Positions 8,308 to 59,823 of a DNA stretch of 64,000 bases are shown here, piece after piece. The stretch is taken from the NCBI GenBank assembly GCA_963818965.1, contig CAWFUG010000011.1:64001-128000 (forward strand). The letters run 5' to 3'. The notes beneath the pieces are model-generated. The model was given only the letters and a program-made list of their open reading frames with translations, was not told the DNA's origin and ran no database searches. The DNA comes from an uncultured Verrucomicrobiae bacterium (lineage in GTDB: Bacteria; Chlamydiota; Chlamydiia; Chlamydiales; Rhabdochlamydiaceae). Every line of letters begins with the position of its first letter. Position 1 is the first letter of the stretch. A program made the position numbers and the translations under genes.

Positions 8308-8476
8308 TATACCCCGCGCGCTTAGGAATGGTGCATTTGAGCGCGTCAAAGCCCCGCGATTCCACGATCGAAGAGGGGGTCTGTATTTTTCTTCAATACA
8401 GGCCCCCTCTTCGATCGTGGAATCGCGGGAGCTGATCAAAGGCTCAAATGCACCATTCCTAAGCGCGCGGGGTATA
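8308..8476. mobile_element. palindromic MITE family A, subfamily A1, intergenic copy
   Basis: 169 bp from TATA to TATA with long terminal and internal inverted repeats; core homologous to the copies at 53942 and 59046. Confidence 0.92.
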
Positions 8477-44343: not shown

Positions 44344-44383
44344 TATACTGCGCCCGGTCAGGAATTGCGAATTTGAGCTGCGT
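44344..44383. mobile_element. solo left arm of MITE family A2
   Basis: TATACTGCGCCCGGTCAGGAATTGCGAATTTGAGC identical to 59046-59080. Confidence 0.85.
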
Positions 44384-44443
44384 GAAAGCTCCCGAAGCCC
44401 GATTTTGCAGCAACTTAGAATTTTTAAAGGGGGAGGGCCAAAA

Positions 44444-53335: not shown

Positions 53336-54732
53336 ATTTATTGCAGAGCATTCGAGTGCCCGGTTCGAAAAGCTATACCAATCGCGCGCTGATCATGGCT
53401 GCGCTCGCAAAGGGGCCTGTCGTCTTAAAAAATCCCTTGCATAGCGATGACACTGAGGCGATGATCGATTGTTTAAGAACCCTGGGGGTAGACATTCAAA
53501 CACCCCCCAACCAAATCATCGTCCATGGCCCTGTCAGCCCTATCGCAGACAAGAGCTACCAGTTGTCCGCACGGGATTCTGGCACTACGGTTCGGTTTCT
53601 GTTGGCTTTACTGTGTATTGTGCCAGGCGTGAAGACGATCCAGGGCAGCAAGCGGCTCAATGAGAGGCCCATCACCGATTTAGTGGATGCTTTGCAAGAA
53701 CTAGGCGCCCAGATTGAATATGGCGAGAAAGAAGGAATGCTCCCCGTAACAGTCACTACCTCTTCCCTATCTGGCAATTCTGTTCATCTCAAGAGCGATT
53801 TGAGCAGTCAATTTTGTTCCGCACTCCTTCTCATCTCTCCCTACATCCCACAAGGGCTTACTCTCCATAGGATAGGCCCCACCCTTTCAAAACCTTACAT
53901 CGAGATGACCCTTCGCTGTATGGAAGAATGGGGCGTAAAGGTATACCGCGCCCGGTCAGGAATTGCGAATTTGAGCGCGTCAAAGCCCCGCGATTCCACG
54001 ATCGAAAAGGGGGCCAGTATTGAGGAAATACAGGCCCCCTTTTCGATCGTGGAATCGCGGGAGCTGATCAAAAACTCAAATTCGCAATTCCTGACCGGGC
54101 GCGGTATAATAGCAAAAGAAAACGAGAGTTATTTTGTCCCAGCGGGCCAATGTTATCGGAAAAAAGAGTACGTGATCGAAGGCGATTTTTCGAGTGCCGG
54201 GTATTTTTTTGCCATCGCCGCCTTAATACAGTCGACGATCACTGTAGAAAATTTAAATCCTTTCTCTTTACAAGCAGACCGAAAGTTTTTGGATATTTTG
54301 GCGAAGATGGGAAACGTTATAACCTATGGCGAAAATGAGATCTGTGTCCAAGGAAAACAAATTATTCCCTTAAGTGTGGACATGGAAGACTGTCCCGATC
54401 AAGTCATGACTCTAGCGGTATTAGCTGCCTTTGCAGACGGCGTTACCCACATCTCAGGGGTGCGCTCTTTGCGCTACAAAGAGACAGAGCGCGTTTTAGC
54501 CCTTAAAAAAGAATTGGGAAAAATGGGAATTAAAACAGAGGACACCTACGATACCCTGACGATTTACGGCGGATCTCCTCACGCAGCTGAAATCGACACC
54601 TATAATGATCACAGAATGGCCATGGCTTTTGCTGTTGCTACAATGCGGCTTGAAGGAATGAGCATTCGCCATCCTGAGGTCGTGAATAAGACCTTCCCGA
54701 CCTTTTGGGAAGTTTTAGGGAGTTTGAGATGA
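53332..54732 (+). CDS. aroA: EPSP synthase containing a 55-aa MITE-derived insertion
   Basis: PGSKSYTNR, SGTTVRF, SSQF, KETER, DHRMAM, KTFP; ATGA overlap with aroB. Confidence 0.95.
   Translation: MNLLQSIRVPGSKSYTNRALIMAALAKGPVVLKNPLHSDDTEAMIDCLRTLGVDIQTPPNQIIVHGPVSPIADKSYQLSARDSGTTVRFLLALLCIVPGVKTIQGSKRLNERPITDLVDALQELGAQIEYGEKEGMLPVTVTTSSLSGNSVHLKSDLSSQFCSALLLISPYIPQGLTLHRIGPTLSKPYIEMTLRCMEEWGVKVYRARSGIANLSASKPRDSTIEKGASIEEIQAPFSIVESRELIKNSNSQFLTGRGIIAKENESYFVPAGQCYRKKEYVIEGDFSSAGYFFAIAALIQSTITVENLNPFSLQADRKFLDILAKMGNVITYGENEICVQGKQIIPLSVDMEDCPDQVMTLAVLAAFADGVTHISGVRSLRYKETERVLALKKELGKMGIKTEDTYDTLTIYGGSPHAAEIDTYNDHRMAMAFAVATMRLEGMSIRHPEVVNKTFPTFWEVLGSLR
53942..54108. mobile_element. palindromic MITE family A2 inserted in frame in aroA
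   Basis: 167 bp: 34-bp perfect outer arms, 29-bp perfect inner arms; TA duplication. Confidence 0.95.
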
Positions 54733-55235
54733 ATATCGTTTTGATCGGTTTTATGGGTGCTGGAAAATCGAGCGTAGCAAAGCACTTGAGTCAGCGGATG
54801 GGTCTTCTCCACGTCGAAACAGATGAACTCGTCTACAAAAAAACAGATACCAAAAATATGCATGAGGTATTTGCACAGGGAGGAGAGCTGCTTTTGCGTG
54901 AGACGGAAATTGCCATTGCAAGAGAATACGCAGCGAAAAAAAATCTGGTCCTCTCCACAGGCGGTGGAATCATACTCAATAAAATCGCTCTCGATTATTT
55001 CAAAAATAAGGGTGGGAAAGTGATTTTCTTAAATGCTAGCTTTGCTACCATCGCACAGCGATTGGCAGAAGATGATTCAAGGCCCTTGTTCAAACAAGCC
55101 GCAAGCGCAAAAGAGCTCTACGATTTTCGGTTCCCCCTTTATTTGAATTACGCAGATGAAGTGATCGACGTCGATTCCCTATCGGTAGATGAAATTGTAG
55201 AGAAGATCAAAGAAAGGGTGGCAGATGGCCTCTAA
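54729..55235 (+). CDS. aroK: shikimate kinase
   Basis: IGFMGAGKS, R..E, STGGG, RPL. Confidence 0.93.
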   Translation: MNIVLIGFMGAGKSSVAKHLSQRMGLLHVETDELVYKKTDTKNMHEVFAQGGELLLRETEIAIAREYAAKKNLVLSTGGGIILNKIALDYFKNKGGKVIFLNASFATIAQRLAEDDSRPLFKQAASAKELYDFRFPLYLNYADEVIDVDSLSVDEIVEKIKERVADGL

Positions 55236-56319
55236 TTTTTTTGGACAGATTTTTCGCATCACCACCTTTGGGGAATCGCATGGGCCAGGCATCGGCGTCG
55301 TCATCGATGGGTGCCCTGCCGGATTGCCTTTGACAAATCAAGATATCGAAGAACAATTGGCCTTTAGGCGGCCCGGTACAAATGCCTACACTTCCCCTCG
55401 GAAAGAAGCAGATCTAGCCGAAATCCTCTCTGGAGTCTTCGAGGGGAAGACCACAGGGGCACCGCTGACCATTTTCATTCGCAATAAAGATGTAGACAGC
55501 TCCTCCTATGAAGCCATTAAAGAGCTCTATCGTCCGGGCCACGCCAACTTCACCTACCTAGAAAAATATGGGATCTTCGACTATCGAGGAGGAGGGAGAT
55601 CCTCCGCAAGAGAAACCGCAGCCCGCGTTGCAGCGGGTGCAGTGGCGAAAAAACTACTGAAGAGGCACCAGATCGAATGCACAGCCTTTGTCTTTGAAAT
55701 CGGAGGGATCGCCATCCCCGATCCCGATCTAGCGCATTTGGACACTTTGCGAGAAAAAACCTATGCGAGTCCGATCTTTTGTCCTGACGAAAAAACCGCA
55801 CAGGCGATGATGGAAAAAATCGCTCAAGCCAAGGAAGATAACGATTCGGTAGGGGGTATCGTCGCTTGTGTCGCCCATGCCCCAGTCGGATTGGGAGATC
55901 CCGTCTATTGCAAACTAGAAGCGCTGCTGGCCTTTGCCATGCTCTCCCTGCCAGCGACTAAAGGGTTTGAGATTGGGTCGGGGTTTGAAGCGGCTAGAAT
56001 GAAGGGATCTGAGCACAATGATCTCTTCACTACCGACAGCGAAGGGCACGTTCATACAGCTAGCAACTGCGCAGGGGGGACCTTAGGGGGAATCTCTACC
56101 GGCTCCCCTCTTTTCTTCAAAGTCGCCTTCAAACCCCCCTCGAGCATTAAAAAGCCCCAAGCGACGGTTAATCTCAAGGGAGAAAAAGTCACCCTTCAAC
56201 TTCCAGAAACGGGGCGACACGACCCTTGTGTCGCCATTCGCGCCGTGCCCATCATCGAAGCGATGACAGCGCTCGTCCTCGTAGATGCGCTCCTCATGAA
56301 CAGAAGTTCAAAACTGTAA
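55225..56319 (+). CDS. aroC: chorismate synthase
   Basis: TFGESHG, RPGHA, GGGRSSARET, GRHDPCV. Confidence 0.96.
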   Translation: MASNFFGQIFRITTFGESHGPGIGVVIDGCPAGLPLTNQDIEEQLAFRRPGTNAYTSPRKEADLAEILSGVFEGKTTGAPLTIFIRNKDVDSSSYEAIKELYRPGHANFTYLEKYGIFDYRGGGRSSARETAARVAAGAVAKKLLKRHQIECTAFVFEIGGIAIPDPDLAHLDTLREKTYASPIFCPDEKTAQAMMEKIAQAKEDNDSVGGIVACVAHAPVGLGDPVYCKLEALLAFAMLSLPATKGFEIGSGFEAARMKGSEHNDLFTTDSEGHVHTASNCAGGTLGGISTGSPLFFKVAFKPPSSIKKPQATVNLKGEKVTLQLPETGRHDPCVAIRAVPIIEAMTALVLVDALLMNRSSKL

Positions 56320-56342
56320 TCATGAGACGTTGCCGCAAAGGG

Positions 56343-56381
56343 AGGGGAAAACCACAGAGAGCACAGAGCACACAGAGAGAA
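56343..56381. repeat. CCACAGAG-type repeat (family E), half copy
   Basis: AGGGGAAAACCACAGAGAGCACAGAGCACACAGAGAG. Confidence 0.7.
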
Positions 56382-56428
56382 AATGAAAAAATATACGTCC
56401 ACAAACACCTGGTAATCAGGGTTCTATC

Positions 56429-56598
56429 TATACCCCTTCCACCTCAATCGTAACCACAAGCAAACCGATTAAAAGCCTCAAAATTCGAACCAAAGGTCGG
56501 GGTCAATATTGAATTTAATATTAACCCCGACCTTTGATTCGAATTTTGAGAACTTTTCATTCGGTTTTCTTGGGTACGATTGAGGTGGAAGGGGTATA
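56429..56598. mobile_element. palindromic MITE family B, 170 bp, TA-flanked
   Basis: TATACCCCTTCCACCTCAATCGTA / TACGATTGAGGTGGAAGGGGTATA ends plus a long inner hairpin. Confidence 0.9.
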
Positions 56599-56693
56599 TA
56601 CCCCGCCCGGTCAGGAATTGCGAATTTGAGCTGCGTGGGATCCCAGGGCTTATGTACCGCTTAAATGCACCACCCTCAAGTGCACGGGGTATA
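56597..56693. mobile_element. internally deleted hybrid family A element (A2 left arm, degenerate A1 right arm)
   Basis: TATACCCCGCCCGGTCAGGAATTGCGAATTTGAGC...GCTTAAATGCACCACCCTCAAGTGCACGGGGTATA. Confidence 0.8.
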
Positions 56694-56766
56694 TTTATAG
56701 ACACAAGCGCCTTATAATCAATACACTAATGGTTGTTTTTGTCGTGTTCAGAACTTCTCATAAAAT

Positions 56767-56881
56767 CGACATTTGTCATTCCTATGGTATAAAAAAACCA
56801 CAGGTCTCCATGTCATAGGATTGACATTTGTCATTCTTATGGTATAGAATTAGGCTAAAATCTCATACCACAGGAATGACA
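56767..56881 (+). promoter_or_regulatory. promoter with three operator-like 17-bp repeats
   Basis: TGTCATTCYTRTGGTAT at 56774, 56829 and inverted at 56865; TTGACA-18 bp-TAGAAT at 56821-56850. Confidence 0.7.
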
Positions 56882-58353
56882 TGAAAAAGGCGGTAGTAAG
56901 ATTTGATGCAAAGCAAAGGAAGTTCATAGGAAGAAAAAAAGAACTGGAAGATCTGAATCTTTTACTAAAAAAAAGAACATCTAGTCTTGTTGTTATTCGA
57001 GGGCGAAGGCGCGTAGGAAAGAGTCGTCTTATCCAAGAATTTGTAAAAGATAAAAATAGCTGGACCTTCGTCGGCCTTCCCCCGATTAAAATGACTAGAG
57101 AAAGACAGATCGATGAATTTTTATCACAACTTTCCCAAAACTTGAAAATACCGAAAATCCAACCTAGCAATTGGAATTGGAGCGAATGTTTTTCTTTTTT
57201 GGCCGCTCATGCACAAAAACAAAAAATAGTGATCGTTTTTGATGAAATCTCGTGGATGGGTTCAGAAGACCCTGACTTTCTAGGCCACTTAAAAAATGCC
57301 TGGGATCTCTATTTTTCTGCTAATCCAAATTTGATCCTGATTCTATGCGGTTCCGTATCAATCTGGATAGAGGAAAATATTCTCAGCAATACGGGATTCG
57401 TTGGGAGAGTCTCCATCGATATGAAATTAGAAGAACTTTCGATATCTCAAAGTCAAGAGTTTTGGGGAAGACAAAAGGATAGACTCAGTTCTTATGAGAA
57501 ATTTAAACTCTTAGCTGTAACAGGAGGAATCCCCAAATATCTTGAGGAAATTATCCCAGAGCAAACTGCTGAAGAAAACATCCAAAGACTATGCTTTCAA
57601 TCCAATGGGCTATTATATCGCGAATATGACCAAATATTCTCAGATCTTTTTTCAAAGCGAGCTAAAACTTATAGTCATATCATAAGTACGTTAAACAAAA
57701 AGGCTTTAACCTTAGACGAAATTTGCAAAATTTTGAAGAAGGAAAAAAGTGGCAACATCTCAAAATATTTGCACGGTCTAATTTCCGCTGGTTTTGTATC
57801 AGAAGATGGAACATGGAATTTAAAGGAAGAAAAAGCATCCCAACTTAAAAAATTTCGACTTAAAGATAACTATATCAGATTTTACTTAAGATATATTGAG
57901 CCCAATAAGAGAAAGATATCGAAAAATTTTTTTGATTCAGGAGTGCTGAATTTGCCGGGGTGGGAATCGATTATGGGGTTGCAATTTGAAAACTTGGTTG
58001 TGAATAATCTTAAAGAGCTCTGCAAAATTCTTAAAATTGATACTCAGGATATAGTCATGGAAGGGCCCTTTTTTCAAAGAGCCACAAAAAGACAAAAAGG
58101 ATGCCAGATTGACCTCCTGATTCAAACTCGACACAATACCCTTTACCTTTGCGAAATTAAGTTTAAAATAAGACAAGTCGACACATCGATTATAGAAGAG
58201 ATTGAGAGAAAAATGAGCAGCATTTCAATTCCAAAAAGTTATTCAATTAGAACTGTTCTTATTCATGTTAACGGAGTAAGCCAAAATGTTGTAGAAAGCG
58301 AGATATTCAGCCATATCGTAGACTTTTCCAATTTCTTAACTTTGCAAATTTGA
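56881..58353 (+). CDS. archaeal-type ATPase with wHTH and C-terminal PD-(D/E)xK-like (DUF234-type) domain
   Basis: FIGRKKEL, GRRRVGKS, VFDE, LCGS, TGGIPKYL, QIDLL, CEIKF; AT-rich. Confidence 0.88.
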   Translation: MKKAVVRFDAKQRKFIGRKKELEDLNLLLKKRTSSLVVIRGRRRVGKSRLIQEFVKDKNSWTFVGLPPIKMTRERQIDEFLSQLSQNLKIPKIQPSNWNWSECFSFLAAHAQKQKIVIVFDEISWMGSEDPDFLGHLKNAWDLYFSANPNLILILCGSVSIWIEENILSNTGFVGRVSIDMKLEELSISQSQEFWGRQKDRLSSYEKFKLLAVTGGIPKYLEEIIPEQTAEENIQRLCFQSNGLLYREYDQIFSDLFSKRAKTYSHIISTLNKKALTLDEICKILKKEKSGNISKYLHGLISAGFVSEDGTWNLKEEKASQLKKFRLKDNYIRFYLRYIEPNKRKISKNFFDSGVLNLPGWESIMGLQFENLVVNNLKELCKILKIDTQDIVMEGPFFQRATKRQKGCQIDLLIQTRHNTLYLCEIKFKIRQVDTSIIEEIERKMSSISIPKSYSIRTVLIHVNGVSQNVVESEIFSHIVDFSNFLTLQI

Positions 58354-59823
58354 AGTCCTGAGAGAGCACGCATCTAAAATAACGAGACACTCGACGTGCA
58401 TCGTCTGGGGGAACATGTCGAAAGGCTGCACGGTCGTAACGCGGTACCCCGCTTGGCTTAAAAATTGCAAGTCGCGCGCCAAGGTCGCTGGGTCGCAGGA
58501 GATGTAGGCGATCCGGTGGGGCTTAAGCACCACGAGCGCCTCGAGGAAAGGGCGCTCACATCCTTTTCTGGGGGGATTGATGAGGGCGAGATCGATCTGA
58601 TTCAGCTCTGCGATCTTTTCTTCTGCGAGACCACAGATGAAATGAGTGTTTTCGATCCCATTGCGCTGTGCATTCTCTTTTGCATCGACGATCGCTTCGG
58701 GGACAGATTCGATGCCGATGACCTCTTTCGCCTTTTGTGCAAAGAAGAGAGAGAGCGTTCCCACGCCGCAATAGGCATCTAAGACCCTTTCTCGACCCGT
58801 CAACTCACTGAGCTCCAGCGCCTTTTTGTAAAGCGCCTCCGCTTGAGGCGGGTTGACCTGAAAAAAGGAAGCGGGAGAGACTTTAAAATAGAGACCACCT
58901 AGAGTCTCTTCGATCCAGCCCTGTCCGATGAGCGTGCGAAATTCCCGTCCTAAGATCACATTTGTCTCGAGTGGGTTGATGTTCTGCACCACCCCTTTAA
59001 TCTCAGGACTTGTGTGGAAGATCTCTTCTGCGAGCTGAGTGATGCTATACTGCGCCCGGTCAGGAATTGCGAATTTGAGCGCGTCAAAGCCCCGGGATTC
59101 CACGATCGAAAAGGGGGCCTGTATTTCCTCAATACTGGCCCCCTTTTCGATCGTGGAATCGCGGGAGCTGATCAAAGGCTCAAATTCGCAATTCCTGACC
59201 GGGCGCAGTATGGACTCATTTGAAGTGACGAGGATGACGAGGATCTCATTTTTATGGACGGCTGTTTTGATCAAAACATGCTTAATCCCTAATTCTGAAT
59301 GCTTCTCTAGAATGCGCTGTATGGAGCTGAGCGCCTTTTCTCCTAGAGGACAGTGGATGGCACAATTTTCGATCTCGATGAGATCGTGGGTGTTGCGCGC
59401 GTAGAGCCCTAAACGGTTCTCTTTACTGACGGGTAACTGGATCTTATTGCGATAAGACAAGGTTTGAGGCGAAGCGATACAGGGCAGCACCTCCGCATCG
59501 ATCTTCGCGATGCGCTGCAACGCATCGACGACGCGCATGCGTTTGGCCTCTAACTGCTTGGAATAACTCAGATGCATCAGCTGACACCCGCCACACCGTC
59601 CGAAGAGCGGACAAGGGGGCTCGGTACGATCGGGAGAGCGATTTAAGAACTCCACCACACGAGCGCGTGCAAAGCTCTTTCTGCGCTCATAGATTGCAGC
59701 GCGCACCCTTTCACCGGGTAGGGCCCCTTCGACAAAGAGGGTGTAGCCATCGACCTTACCGACCCCCTCTCCATGGATGCCTAGGCGTTCGACCAGGACT
59801 TCTATTTCTTTACTCTCTTCCAT
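58336..59823 (-). CDS. rlmD: 23S rRNA (uracil-C5)-methyltransferase RlmD containing a MITE-derived insertion
   Basis: TRAM domain, CPLFGRCGGCQ, SFFQVN, DAYCGVG, NPPRKG, YISC, DMFPQT. Confidence 0.95.
   Translation of the reverse strand: MEESKEIEVLVERLGIHGEGVGKVDGYTLFVEGALPGERVRAAIYERRKSFARARVVEFLNRSPDRTEPPCPLFGRCGGCQLMHLSYSKQLEAKRMRVVDALQRIAKIDAEVLPCIASPQTLSYRNKIQLPVSKENRLGLYARNTHDLIEIENCAIHCPLGEKALSSIQRILEKHSELGIKHVLIKTAVHKNEILVILVTSNESILRPVRNCEFEPLISSRDSTIEKGASIEEIQAPFSIVESRGFDALKFAIPDRAQYSITQLAEEIFHTSPEIKGVVQNINPLETNVILGREFRTLIGQGWIEETLGGLYFKVSPASFFQVNPPQAEALYKKALELSELTGRERVLDAYCGVGTLSLFFAQKAKEVIGIESVPEAIVDAKENAQRNGIENTHFICGLAEEKIAELNQIDLALINPPRKGCERPFLEALVVLKPHRIAYISCDPATLARDLQFLSQAGYRVTTVQPFDMFPQTMHVECLVILDACSLRTSNLQS
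59046..59212. mobile_element. palindromic MITE family A2 inserted in frame in rlmD
   Basis: 167 bp, near-identical to 53942-54108 with the central 17 bp inverted; right end TATG instead of TATA. Confidence 0.95.

What the first reader, a model, noticed from the sequence alone, without database searches (positions are those of the whole stretch)
59046..59212. Second in-frame insertion (rlmD) with opposite polarity and a flipped core, yet the same central peptide
Seen: rlmD is on the minus strand, so the element is read in the opposite orientation and the outer arm in a different frame (ILRPVRNCEFE here, YRARSGIANL in aroA). The central 17 bp is reverse-complemented relative to the aroA copy (TGTATTTCCTCAATACT vs AGTATTGAGGAAATACA). 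Together with the 11/13-nt bulge asymmetry, this makes both proteins contain the identical 24-mer RDSTIEKGASIEEIQAPFSIVESR. The ORF track shows at least three frames open across this copy. The unflipped core would give ACISSILA with no stop, so stop avoidance does not explain it. Inference: the core inverts by recombination between the inner arms, and the acidic version may be selected. With two copies, chance is not excluded.
Basis: partly seen in the sequence, partly recalled or inferred. Interest (0 to 1): 0.85.

Follow-up and report, generated by a model that had tools for sequence, protein, structure and literature searches.

The report
Flipped hairpin tip in in-frame mobile palindrome
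A 167-base hairpin-forming mobile element sits in frame inside a chlamydial rRNA methyltransferase gene, and its small central loop has been turned round many times in the element family, so the matching peptide in the aroA copy is a real but largely expected outcome whose selection is unproven.

Summary
Window 59046-59212 is a 167-nt hairpin element (DNA fold -90.5 kcal/mol, z -19.7) lying in frame in rlmD. It adds 55 residues that all 31 aligned homologues lack and that AlphaFold2 models as a low-confidence coil. The aroA copy (53942-54108) has the same spacer polarity on the + strand but a reverse-complemented 17-nt core, so both proteins carry the same 24-mer.

This scan had already described the family as a Rickettsia-RPE-like in-frame MITE, in other parts of this environmental Chlamydiota genome. 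What is new here is the flip.

- **Both core states are common.** Of 31 copies with an intact centre, 20 have one core orientation relative to the unequal spacers and 11 have the other.
- **The flip recurs.** On a tree of the arms it needs 9 changes (at least 6 forced), as scattered as shuffled labels. This fits the known inverted-repeat spacer inversion by template switching.
- **Most of the 24-mer is automatic.** 18 of its 24 residues follow from the palindromic arms. Only 6 depend on the flip.

All 7 gene-supported full copies show the purine loop (EE or DE) on the coding strand. Fisher p is 0.045 under a debatable null, and for aroA alone chance is about 0.16-0.35. Selection is therefore suggestive, not shown. 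No reads were available to test for an artefact or for mixed orientations.

The parts
59046..59212 (.). Full copy of the palindromic MITE-like element (167 nt counting both terminal TA; net insertion 165 nt = 55 codons)
   Evidence: hairpin, z -19.66; family boundaries from the alignment of 24 copies; 55-residue gap in homologues
59046..59080 (.). Left outer arm (terminal inverted repeat, 35 nt)
   Evidence: outer-arm blast gives 59 hits in the genome
59178..59212 (.). Right outer arm (35 nt; last base G where most copies have A)
59081..59096 (+). Short ('alpha') spacer, 16 nt, unpaired or poorly paired with its partner
   Evidence: my partition of the printed sequence
59160..59177 (+). Long ('beta') spacer, 18 nt; the 2-nt excess shifts the outer-arm reading frame
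59097..59119 (.). Left inner arm, perfect inverted repeat of 59137-59159
59137..59159 (.). Right inner arm
59120..59136 (+). 17-nt core: mismatch position, 5-bp stem, 5-nt pyrimidine loop (59126-59130), 5-bp stem, mismatch position; the invertible unit
59047..59211 (-). The 55 inserted codons as read in rlmD (beta spacer first, purine loop on the coding strand)
58336..59823 (-). rlmD-type 23S rRNA (uracil-5)-methyltransferase gene, otherwise intact (TRAM, Fe-S cysteines, catalytic Cys column conserved)
   Evidence: Pfam PF05958, PF01938; invariant columns C71, C77, C80, C154, C443; PDB 5xj1 E 3.8e-82 with the alignment split at query 207/259; AF2 mean pLDDT 86.7
53942..54108 (+). aroA copy of the same element: alpha spacer first on the coding strand, core flipped (core 54016-54032)
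   Evidence: PF00275 E 6.3e-109 in two stretches; PDB 2qfq alignment split at query 229/289
8308..8476 (+). Third full copy in the window (169 nt, unflipped configuration, 2-nt longer loop); no long spanning ORF
44344..44392 (+). Solo outer arm plus alpha spacer (half element)
56597..56636 (+). Solo outer-arm fragment abutting a copy of a second palindromic family

Best explanation
The feature is one copy of a non-autonomous, hairpin-shaped mobile element (a MITE that behaves like the palindromic elements of Rickettsia) in an environmental Chlamydiota genome. It inserted at a TA inside rlmD and added exactly 55 codons, which are tolerated as a flexible surface loop. The element has a fixed asymmetry, a 16-nt and an 18-nt spacer, and a 17-nt tip held between perfect 23-nt inverted arms. 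That tip is a mutational hot spot. It is turned round as a unit again and again, most likely by template switching of the replicating strand across the inverted arms (inverted-repeat spacer inversion); intramolecular recombination between the arms is the alternative. The aroA copy sits in the opposite orientation and carries a derived flip. Most of the shared 24-mer (18 residues) follows automatically from the palindromic arms read in the same phase, and the flip supplies the other 6. Genes tolerate only a few readings of the element, overwhelmingly one orientation and frame. The flip at aroA itself needs no selection to be explained, and the data cannot separate a mild preference for the acidic tip from chance. 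Shown: the anatomy, the in-frame insertions, the empty sites, the recurrent flipping and the derived state at aroA. Inferred: the TA duplication, template switching as the mechanism, and neutrality of the aroA flip.
For: Hairpin: (z -19.66). Family: 86 loci in the assembly. No comparable copies in relatives: 13 of 41 related genomes, counting the window's own, match the DNA, and none of the others exceeds 78% identity over part of the element. The 55-aa peptide matches 8 of 401 genomes of the order, counting the window's own, and every foreign match is weak (E >= 6.5e-6, open frame <= 96 aa). Empty sites: 7 of 7 and 31 of 31 RlmD homologues lack the 55 residues. In relatives, the conserved 233-aa protein at C9:220299-220997 matches as two abutting stretches, query 10-68 and 124-221. 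The repeat unit is 167 nt but the net gain is 165 nt, which fits a 2-nt TA duplication. Tolerance: in the AF2 model of RlmD (mean pLDDT 86.7, pTM 0.83) residues 206-256 have pLDDT < 50 and no secondary structure, between strand 193-200 and helix 261-269. Flipping: 31 intact centres, classified by me as 20 versus 11. The arm tree needs 9 changes, at least 6 forced; shuffles average 9.4, and 243-247 of 500 are as low. aroA is the one flipped copy in a 97/99-supported clade of six. Flipped copies also occur outside genes: 9 of 19 non-genic copies. Known mechanism: spacer inversion between perfect inverted repeats in yeast coding genes, reversible and recurrent, swapping residues such as E and F (PMC8604942, passages); loop inversions in hairpins of bacteria and animals (PMC8794818, passages). 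No serine invertase family match in the genome, and the neighbouring genes are an ATPase, a GDPD and a DUF1499 protein. My arithmetic on the branch lengths printed: about 1.3 flips per unit branch length, giving an expectation of 0.17 flips on the aroA terminal branch.
Against: The pattern across genes leans towards a filter on the tip. All 7 gene-supported full copies (rlmD, aroA, WbuC cupin, MenC-like, SulP, the conserved 233-aa protein, the LRR protein) have the purine loop on the coding strand in the same inner frame, while non-genic copies split 10:9. Fisher 6:0 versus 10:9 gives p = 0.045, and 9:0 (adding 3 unverified ORFs) gives p = 0.013. The two stop-free readings that would carry the pyrimidine loop in that frame are used by no full-length genic copy. 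Template switching versus recombination is not distinguished by any result here. No autonomous parent element and no DDE_3 transposase were found (assembly 87.85% complete), so mobility is inferred from the copies and the empty sites only. The TA duplication cannot be separated from the palindromic termini at DNA level, because the closest RlmD homologue is only 73% identical in protein.
Confidence: 0.55

Rival explanations
1. The acidic tip is selected. Loop inversion supplies both states at a high rate, and purifying selection on the host proteins keeps the purine-loop reading (SIEEIQ-type, hydrophilic, no Cys) and removes the pyrimidine-loop reading (CISSIL, hydrophobic, Cys). An element inserted in either orientation therefore converges on the same central peptide.
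For: 7 of 7 gene-supported full copies, and 10 of 10 when 3 unverified long ORFs are added, read the purine loop in the same inner frame. Non-genic copies are 10:9. Fisher p = 0.045 or 0.013, and the probability under the non-genic frequencies is 0.010 or 0.0015. The pyrimidine-loop readings are stop-free yet unused. The only genic copy in the opposite orientation is the only flipped member of its clade. The core octapeptide has a hydropathy of 0.16 versus 2.16 for the unflipped version, and the insert is modelled as an exposed coil.
Against: Six of the seven share one orientation, frame and configuration, so they may simply descend from unflipped source copies and be filtered on their arms and spacers rather than their tip. 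Only aroA tests the tip independently (n = 1; neutral probability about 0.16 from branch length, 0.23-0.35 from family frequencies). The expected number of flips on the nine terminal branches of the majority-frame genic copies is only about 0.9, so seeing none is unremarkable (P about 0.4; my arithmetic). One unverified genic copy reads NA rather than acidic residues at the tip (C8:368870). A truncated half copy in the msrA-msrB linker keeps the unflipped-type half reading. The test was framed after seeing the data.
Confidence: 0.35
2. Assembly artefact: the assembler threaded the hairpin tip in the wrong direction at aroA, or mixed near-identical copies.
For: The arms are perfect palindromes and the copies are 93-99% alike. 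The assembly contains at least one obvious fold-back artefact, a 1.6-kb perfect palindrome on contig C4. No reads could be examined (no run was listed).
Against: The flipped state is an exact reverse complement of all 7 asymmetric positions and recurs in 11 copies of several subfamilies in different contexts. The nearest spacer asymmetry is about 26-32 nt from the asymmetric core positions (my count), so ordinary reads link them. A divergent copy from an unrelated metagenome contig also shows the beta-first, pyrimidine-loop arrangement (L096).
Confidence: 0.04
3. A programmed invertible switch: a site-specific recombinase flips the core to toggle two protein isoforms.
For: Inverted repeats flank a short invertible segment, and both orientations exist in the family.
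Against: No Resolvase/invertase family match in the genome, while the control found the family in 12 of 14 known genomes. No recombinase lies next to the locus. The flips are scattered over dozens of dispersed copies, many of them non-genic. The 5-nt loop and 17-nt core are far smaller than known invertible segments (recalled, not tested).
Confidence: 0.03

Closest known systems
Rickettsia palindromic elements (RPEs; Ogata et al. 2000, 2002, as summarised in the review PMC10969869, passage read)
   Same: A hairpin-forming repeat of about 150 nt. Many copies are inserted in frame in unrelated housekeeping genes, each encoding a conserved peptide in one preferred reading, in positions compatible with the host protein fold, in an obligate intracellular lineage.
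   Different: The phylum differs (Chlamydiota, judged from the titles of the closest RlmD loci). No sequence comparison with RPEs was made. Here the element has a fixed two-spacer asymmetry and a tip found in both orientations. I do not know of a reported flipped RPE tip (recalled, not searched specifically).
Inverted-repeat spacer inversion by replication template switching (yeast coding genes, PMC8604942; RNA hairpin loops, PMC8794818; passages read)
   Same: Perfect arms, a short spacer replaced by its exact reverse complement with length kept, recurrent and reversible, changing one or two residues when it lies in a coding sequence.
   Different: Those cases are single-copy loci followed along strain or species trees. 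Here the states are compared among dispersed copies of a mobile element, so a flip before and a flip after insertion cannot be separated.
Hairpin-associated small inversions in plastid non-coding DNA
   Same: The loop between short inverted repeats flips homoplastically, without a dedicated enzyme.
   Different: The plastid cases are non-coding and not mobile elements.
Flip/flop isomers of parvovirus terminal hairpins (recalled, not searched)
   Same: Two orientations of the asymmetric tip of a hairpin, at comparable frequency.
   Different: Those arise by hairpin transfer at the ends of a linear genome. Here the hairpins are internal chromosomal insertions.

Membership tests
MITE (non-autonomous terminal-inverted-repeat element) | Terminal inverted repeats | tested here: met
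   35-nt outer arms 59046-59080 / 59178-59212, within the 41-nt, 93% complementary arms, conserved across copies
MITE (non-autonomous terminal-inverted-repeat element) | Many dispersed copies too small to encode a transposase | tested here: met
   86 loci, about 19 full length at about 167 nt
MITE (non-autonomous terminal-inverted-repeat element) | Target-site duplication and empty sites | tested here: inconclusive
   Empty sites are shown at protein level. A 167-nt unit with a 165-nt net gain fits a TA duplication, but the TA is also part of the palindromic terminus, and no DNA-level empty site close enough was found.
MITE (non-autonomous terminal-inverted-repeat element) | Related autonomous element with the same ends | tested here: not met
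   No pair of outer arms at IS-like spacing apart from the C4 fold-back artefact. No DDE_3 match. The assembly is 87.85% complete, so absence is not shown.
Rickettsia palindromic elements (as a functional class, not sequence homology) | In-frame insertion in unrelated genes with one conserved peptide reading | tested here: met
   7 gene-supported full copies; 6 share one orientation and frame, and all 7 share the inner frame
Rickettsia palindromic elements (as a functional class, not sequence homology) | Sequence relationship to RPE-1 to RPE-10 | not tested
   No RPE sequence was fetched. A different phylum makes membership by descent unlikely.
Rickettsia palindromic elements (as a functional class, not sequence homology) | Insert lies outside the folded core of the host protein | tested here: met
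   AF2: residues 206-256 are coil with pLDDT < 50 between well-modelled elements. The PDB alignments split cleanly at the insert. This is a prediction only.
Inverted-repeat spacer (hairpin loop) inversion | Exact reverse complement of the spacer, same length, between perfect arms | tested here: met
   all 7 asymmetric core positions swapped; arms identical
Inverted-repeat spacer (hairpin loop) inversion | Recurrent, homoplastic occurrence | tested here: met
   9 changes on the arm tree, at least 6 forced, equal to shuffles
Inverted-repeat spacer (hairpin loop) inversion | Arises during replication by template switching | not testable with these tools
   Mechanism inferred from the literature
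Programmed invertible DNA switch | Dedicated site-specific recombinase | tested here: not met
   PF00239 not found in the genome. The neighbouring genes are unrelated. Tyrosine recombinases were not searched.
Programmed invertible DNA switch | Both orientations at one locus within a population | not testable with these tools
   No sequencing run was listed, so no reads were laid

The most novel reading that the evidence does not exclude
The hairpin tip acts as a fast two-state codon cassette (acidic EE versus SS with Cys/Leu flanks) that replication flips at a rate comparable to a few per cent of sequence divergence. Selection on host proteins then fixes the acidic state whichever way the element went in. 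A selfish palindrome would thus 'self-correct' its encoded loop, and opposite insertions would converge on one peptide. This would be a concrete case of template-switch mutation being used to domesticate mobile DNA inside essential genes.
Probability: 0.35. Interest if true: 0.6.

Novelty: new member of a known kind. Interest (0 to 1): 0.4.

Why it matters
In-frame palindromic elements are a rare natural experiment in how proteins absorb 55 random-looking residues. Outside Rickettsia they are little documented: my search for 'palindromic element', 'in-frame' and 'Chlamydiae' listed no paper on such elements in Chlamydiae among the 15 papers shown. This family adds a clean, countable example of hairpin-loop inversion acting inside coding sequence, with a two-state amino-acid outcome. 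If more genomes of the lineage show that genic copies are fixed for one state while non-genic copies drift between both, that would measure selection on mobile-element-encoded peptide loops directly. If not, the case is a useful warning that matching peptides from opposite insertions of a palindrome are mostly automatic.

Tried and rejected
- **Reads for mixed orientations or an artefact:** The look-up of sequencing runs on window 53500-59700 listed no run.
- **More copies from public metagenomes:** one pattern scan returned a single divergent copy at a contig end (L096). This is too little for statistics.
- **More copies from relatives:** the DNA search of 41 genomes and the peptide search of 401 genomes of the order found only weak, partial or stop-containing matches outside the window's genome, so the family in this form is confined to this genome among those searched.
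- **DNA-level empty sites in the same-genus genome G001:** its best RlmD and AroA matches are only 46% and 36% identical, too distant to be useful.
- **Parent transposon:** none was found. The apparent pair of arms on contig C4 is a fold-back palindrome.
- **Insertion bias relative to replication as the cause of the orientation preference:** the element's orientation splits 19 lagging to 12 leading against local GC skew, and genic copies lie in 6 leading-strand and 6 lagging-strand genes. Rejected as the main cause.
- **Known RNA family:** no Rfam match reaches its gathering score. Only spurious microRNA-hairpin hits appear.
- **Stop avoidance as the reason for the flip at aroA:** rejected, because the unflipped reading is open. 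Stop avoidance does apply in another frame, where the purine loop creates TGA.
- **Gene support for two long ORFs with in-frame copies** (343 aa at C10, 300 aa at C9:362971-363870): no family or homologue was found, so they are counted only as unverified.
Full report
**What is at the coordinates.** Window 59046-59212 is a 167-nt nested palindrome. From my reading and the fold, its parts are:
- 35-nt outer arms, 59046-59080 and 59178-59212;
- two unequal spacers, 16 nt at 59081-59096 and 18 nt at 59160-59177;
- perfect 23-nt inner arms, 59097-59119 and 59137-59159;
- a 17-nt core at 59120-59136, made of a mismatch position, a 5-bp stem, a 5-nt pyrimidine loop, the stem again and a second mismatch position.

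As single-stranded DNA it folds at -90.5 kcal/mol, against a mean of -27.0 for 200 shuffles (z = -19.66), and no shuffle folds as well. It lies inside a 495-codon minus-strand ORF (58336-59823). That ORF matches tRNA_U5-meth_tr and TRAM in Pfam and the RlmCD/RumA structures (5xj1 E 3.8e-82, 1uwv E 2.3e-57).

The three-way alignment shows that the aroA copy (window 53942-54108, + strand, coding) agrees with the rlmD copy's + strand in both spacers. In the core it agrees with the rlmD copy's minus (coding) strand. All seven asymmetric core positions are exchanged together. Both proteins therefore contain the same 24-residue stretch with different readings of the outer arms. Three of six frames are open across the rlmD copy. 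The unflipped core read in the shared inner frame has no stop.

**The element is a mobile in-frame insertion.**
- Seven of 7 and 31 of 31 chlamydial and other RlmD homologues lack exactly the 55 residues, between a conserved strand and the following helix.
- The alignment to the solved structure 5xj1 breaks at query residues 207 and 259.
- The AlphaFold2 model built on the 32-row alignment is confident overall (mean pLDDT 86.7, pTM 0.83). Residues 206-256 are coil with pLDDT below 50, between strand 193-200 and helix 261-269.
- AroA behaves the same way: the EPSP synthase Pfam match comes in two stretches, and the alignment to 2qfq splits at query 229/289.
- The repeat unit, counted from its terminal TA to its terminal TA, is 167 nt, while the proteins gain 165 nt. 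This fits a duplicated TA target, though the TA is also part of the palindromic end, so the duplication is inferred.

**The family.** blastn finds 150 hits that merge into 86 loci in the 2.24-Mb, 12-contig assembly. About 19 are full length; the rest are halves, solo arms and internally deleted copies. The titles of the closest RlmD loci place the organism among environmental Chlamydiota. Relatives hold only distant or partial versions:
- 13 of 41 related genomes, including the window's own, match the DNA, and none of the others exceeds 78% identity over part of the element.
- The 55-residue peptide matches 8 of 401 genomes of the order, including the window's own, and all foreign matches are weak.

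No parent transposon, DDE_3 transposase or serine recombinase was found. The assembly is only 87.85% complete, so absence is not shown. This scan had already described the family as RPE-like at two other places in this genome (e1-7655021, e1-3868245). I re-found both host genes: the WbuC cupin by TIGR04366 and SulP by PF00916.

**The core flips, and often.** A pattern search found 31 copies with an intact central hairpin. I oriented each with the pyrimidine loop on the shown strand. From the printed spacers I then read which side carries the short and which the long spacer. This classification is mine, by spacer length (16 versus 18 nt) and sequence signature, not a tool output. Every copy has one short and one long spacer.
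- Twenty copies have the arrangement of the rlmD copy.
- Eleven have the arrangement of the aroA copy.
- A maximum-likelihood tree of the arms and spacers with the core removed (31 rows, 158 columns) needs 9 changes of this state. Well-supported branches force at least 6. Label shuffles average 9.4, and 243-247 of 500 are as low.

The state is therefore unlinked to the history of the arms. The aroA copy sits in a clade of six supported at 97/99, together with the rlmD copy and four others, all unflipped. Its state is therefore derived. A divergent copy on an unrelated metagenome contig also has the long spacer first with the pyrimidine loop.

**Mechanism.** Exact inversion of a short spacer between perfect inverted repeats is a described mutation type. 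In yeast coding genes, ten spacer inversions of 2-5 bp were attributed to intermolecular template switching. They were recurrent and reversible, and they changed one or two residues (PMC8604942, passages). Loop inversions of up to 7-8 nt were found in hairpins of bacterial rRNA and a primate microRNA (PMC8794818, passages). Plastid hairpin inversions are a further parallel; I saw that paper only in a search listing.

**How much of the shared peptide needs explaining.** The inner arms are perfect palindromes. Any insertion that puts them in the same phase therefore yields the same nine residues on each side, which accounts for 18 of the 24. Only the six residues across the core depend on the flip, and four of those six differ between the two states.

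**Is the acidic state selected?** Natural copies show which readings are open.
- An unflipped copy of the rlmD type, and a second copy with the same spacers, each have three open readings.
- The two unflipped copies with the other long-spacer variant each have four.
- The flipped aroA copy has two.
- In one further frame the purine loop creates a TGA.

Genes with family or homologue support that carry a full copy are rlmD, aroA, the WbuC cupin, a MenC-like enzyme, SulP, a conserved 233-residue protein and an 834-residue LRR protein. The conserved protein's relatives match it on both sides of the insert. The LRR protein has Pfam support on one side only. Six use one reading (long spacer first, unflipped), and aroA uses the opposite orientation with the flip. 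All 7 present the purine loop in the same inner frame, as SIEEIQ, SIDEIQ or CIEEIQ.

Three further long ORFs without homologues or with N-terminal copies read the same way: 343 aa, 523 aa and the Wzy-like 514 aa. One of them has NA rather than acidic residues at the tip. One 300-residue ORF without homologues uses a different frame. A copy at residues 8-63 of a UGP3-like open frame may lie upstream of the true start.

Non-genic copies split 10 to 9. Fisher's test of the 6 supported majority-frame copies (6:0) against these 19 gives p = 0.045. It leaves out aroA, the three unverified ORFs, the 300-residue ORF and the UGP3-like case. Adding the three unverified ORFs (9:0) gives p = 0.013.

**Evidence against selection.**
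- The six or nine majority copies may simply derive from unflipped sources and be filtered on their arms and spacers, not their tip.
- From the branch lengths printed I estimate about 1.3 flips per unit length (my arithmetic). That gives about 0.9 expected flips on their nine terminal branches, so seeing none has P of about 0.4. It gives about 0.17 on the aroA branch.
- The family frequencies of the flipped state (3 of 13 in the closest subfamily, 11 of 31 overall) give 0.23-0.35.
- A truncated half copy in the linker between the MsrA and MsrB domains keeps the unflipped-type reading up to its break.
- Orientation relative to GC skew shows no strong bias (19:12; genes 6 leading, 6 lagging). 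Replication-linked insertion bias therefore does not explain the preferred reading.

I conclude that a filter on the encoded peptide as a whole is likely, as for RPEs (PMC10969869, passage). A filter on the tip itself is about a one-in-three proposition.

**Artefact and switch.** No reads could be examined. The assembly does contain a 1.6-kb perfect fold-back on contig C4, so it is not free of palindrome artefacts. However, the flipped state recurs exactly in eleven copies in different contexts. The asymmetric core positions also lie within about 26-32 nt of the nearest spacer asymmetry, by my count. A programmed switch is unlikely: no serine invertase was found, the neighbouring genes are unrelated, and the flips are spread over many non-genic copies.

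**Verdict.** The inversion inference is supported and generalised, while the selection inference remains open. This is a new member of known kinds: an RPE-like in-frame MITE combined with inverted-repeat spacer inversion. It is of moderate interest, mainly as a countable system for testing selection on mobile-element-encoded loops.

Noticed in passing
window 56429-56598: A second, unrelated-looking palindromic element family of about 170 nt. It has the same TATAC...GTATA ends (28-nt outer arms 96% complementary, 37-nt inner arms abutting with no loop). At least 24 near-full copies at 92-100% identity are in the genome, several directly next to copies or fragments of the first family (here a solo arm at 56597-56636). 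The shared ends suggest one mobilising enzyme.
   Followed up: partly
G000 contig C4:9800-13100 (locus L141): A 3.3-kb stretch that is one large near-perfect palindrome (arms of 523, 925 and 135 nt at 99-100%). It is most likely a fold-back assembly artefact, and it duplicates a partial element copy in mirror image.
   Followed up: partly
G000 C12:93629-94822 (locus L136): An MsrA-MsrB fusion protein (PF01625 + PF01641) carries an 84-nt half copy of the element in frame in the inter-domain linker. It is cut off at the hairpin tip. Several other half copies also end near the centre, as if hairpins break or delete at the tip.
   Followed up: partly
G000 C10:33738-33815, C12:7544-7642, C12:69959-70035, C8:394030-394076: Internally deleted copies in which the two outer arms are only 1-32 nt apart. 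This points to frequent loss of the hairpin interior.
   Followed up: no
L039:1001-2449 (Parachlamydiaceae MAG RlmD homologue): This homologue has its own unrelated insertion of about 55 residues at a different site (alignment columns 176-231 of A1), upstream of the site used here. Another lineage may have acquired a different in-frame insert in the same enzyme.
   Followed up: no
window 59126-59130 and 54022-54026: On the coding strand of every gene-supported copy the hairpin loop reads as a Shine-Dalgarno-like purine pentamer. The opposite state would put an anti-SD-like pyrimidine pentamer in the mRNA. An RNA-level effect was not examined.
   Followed up: no
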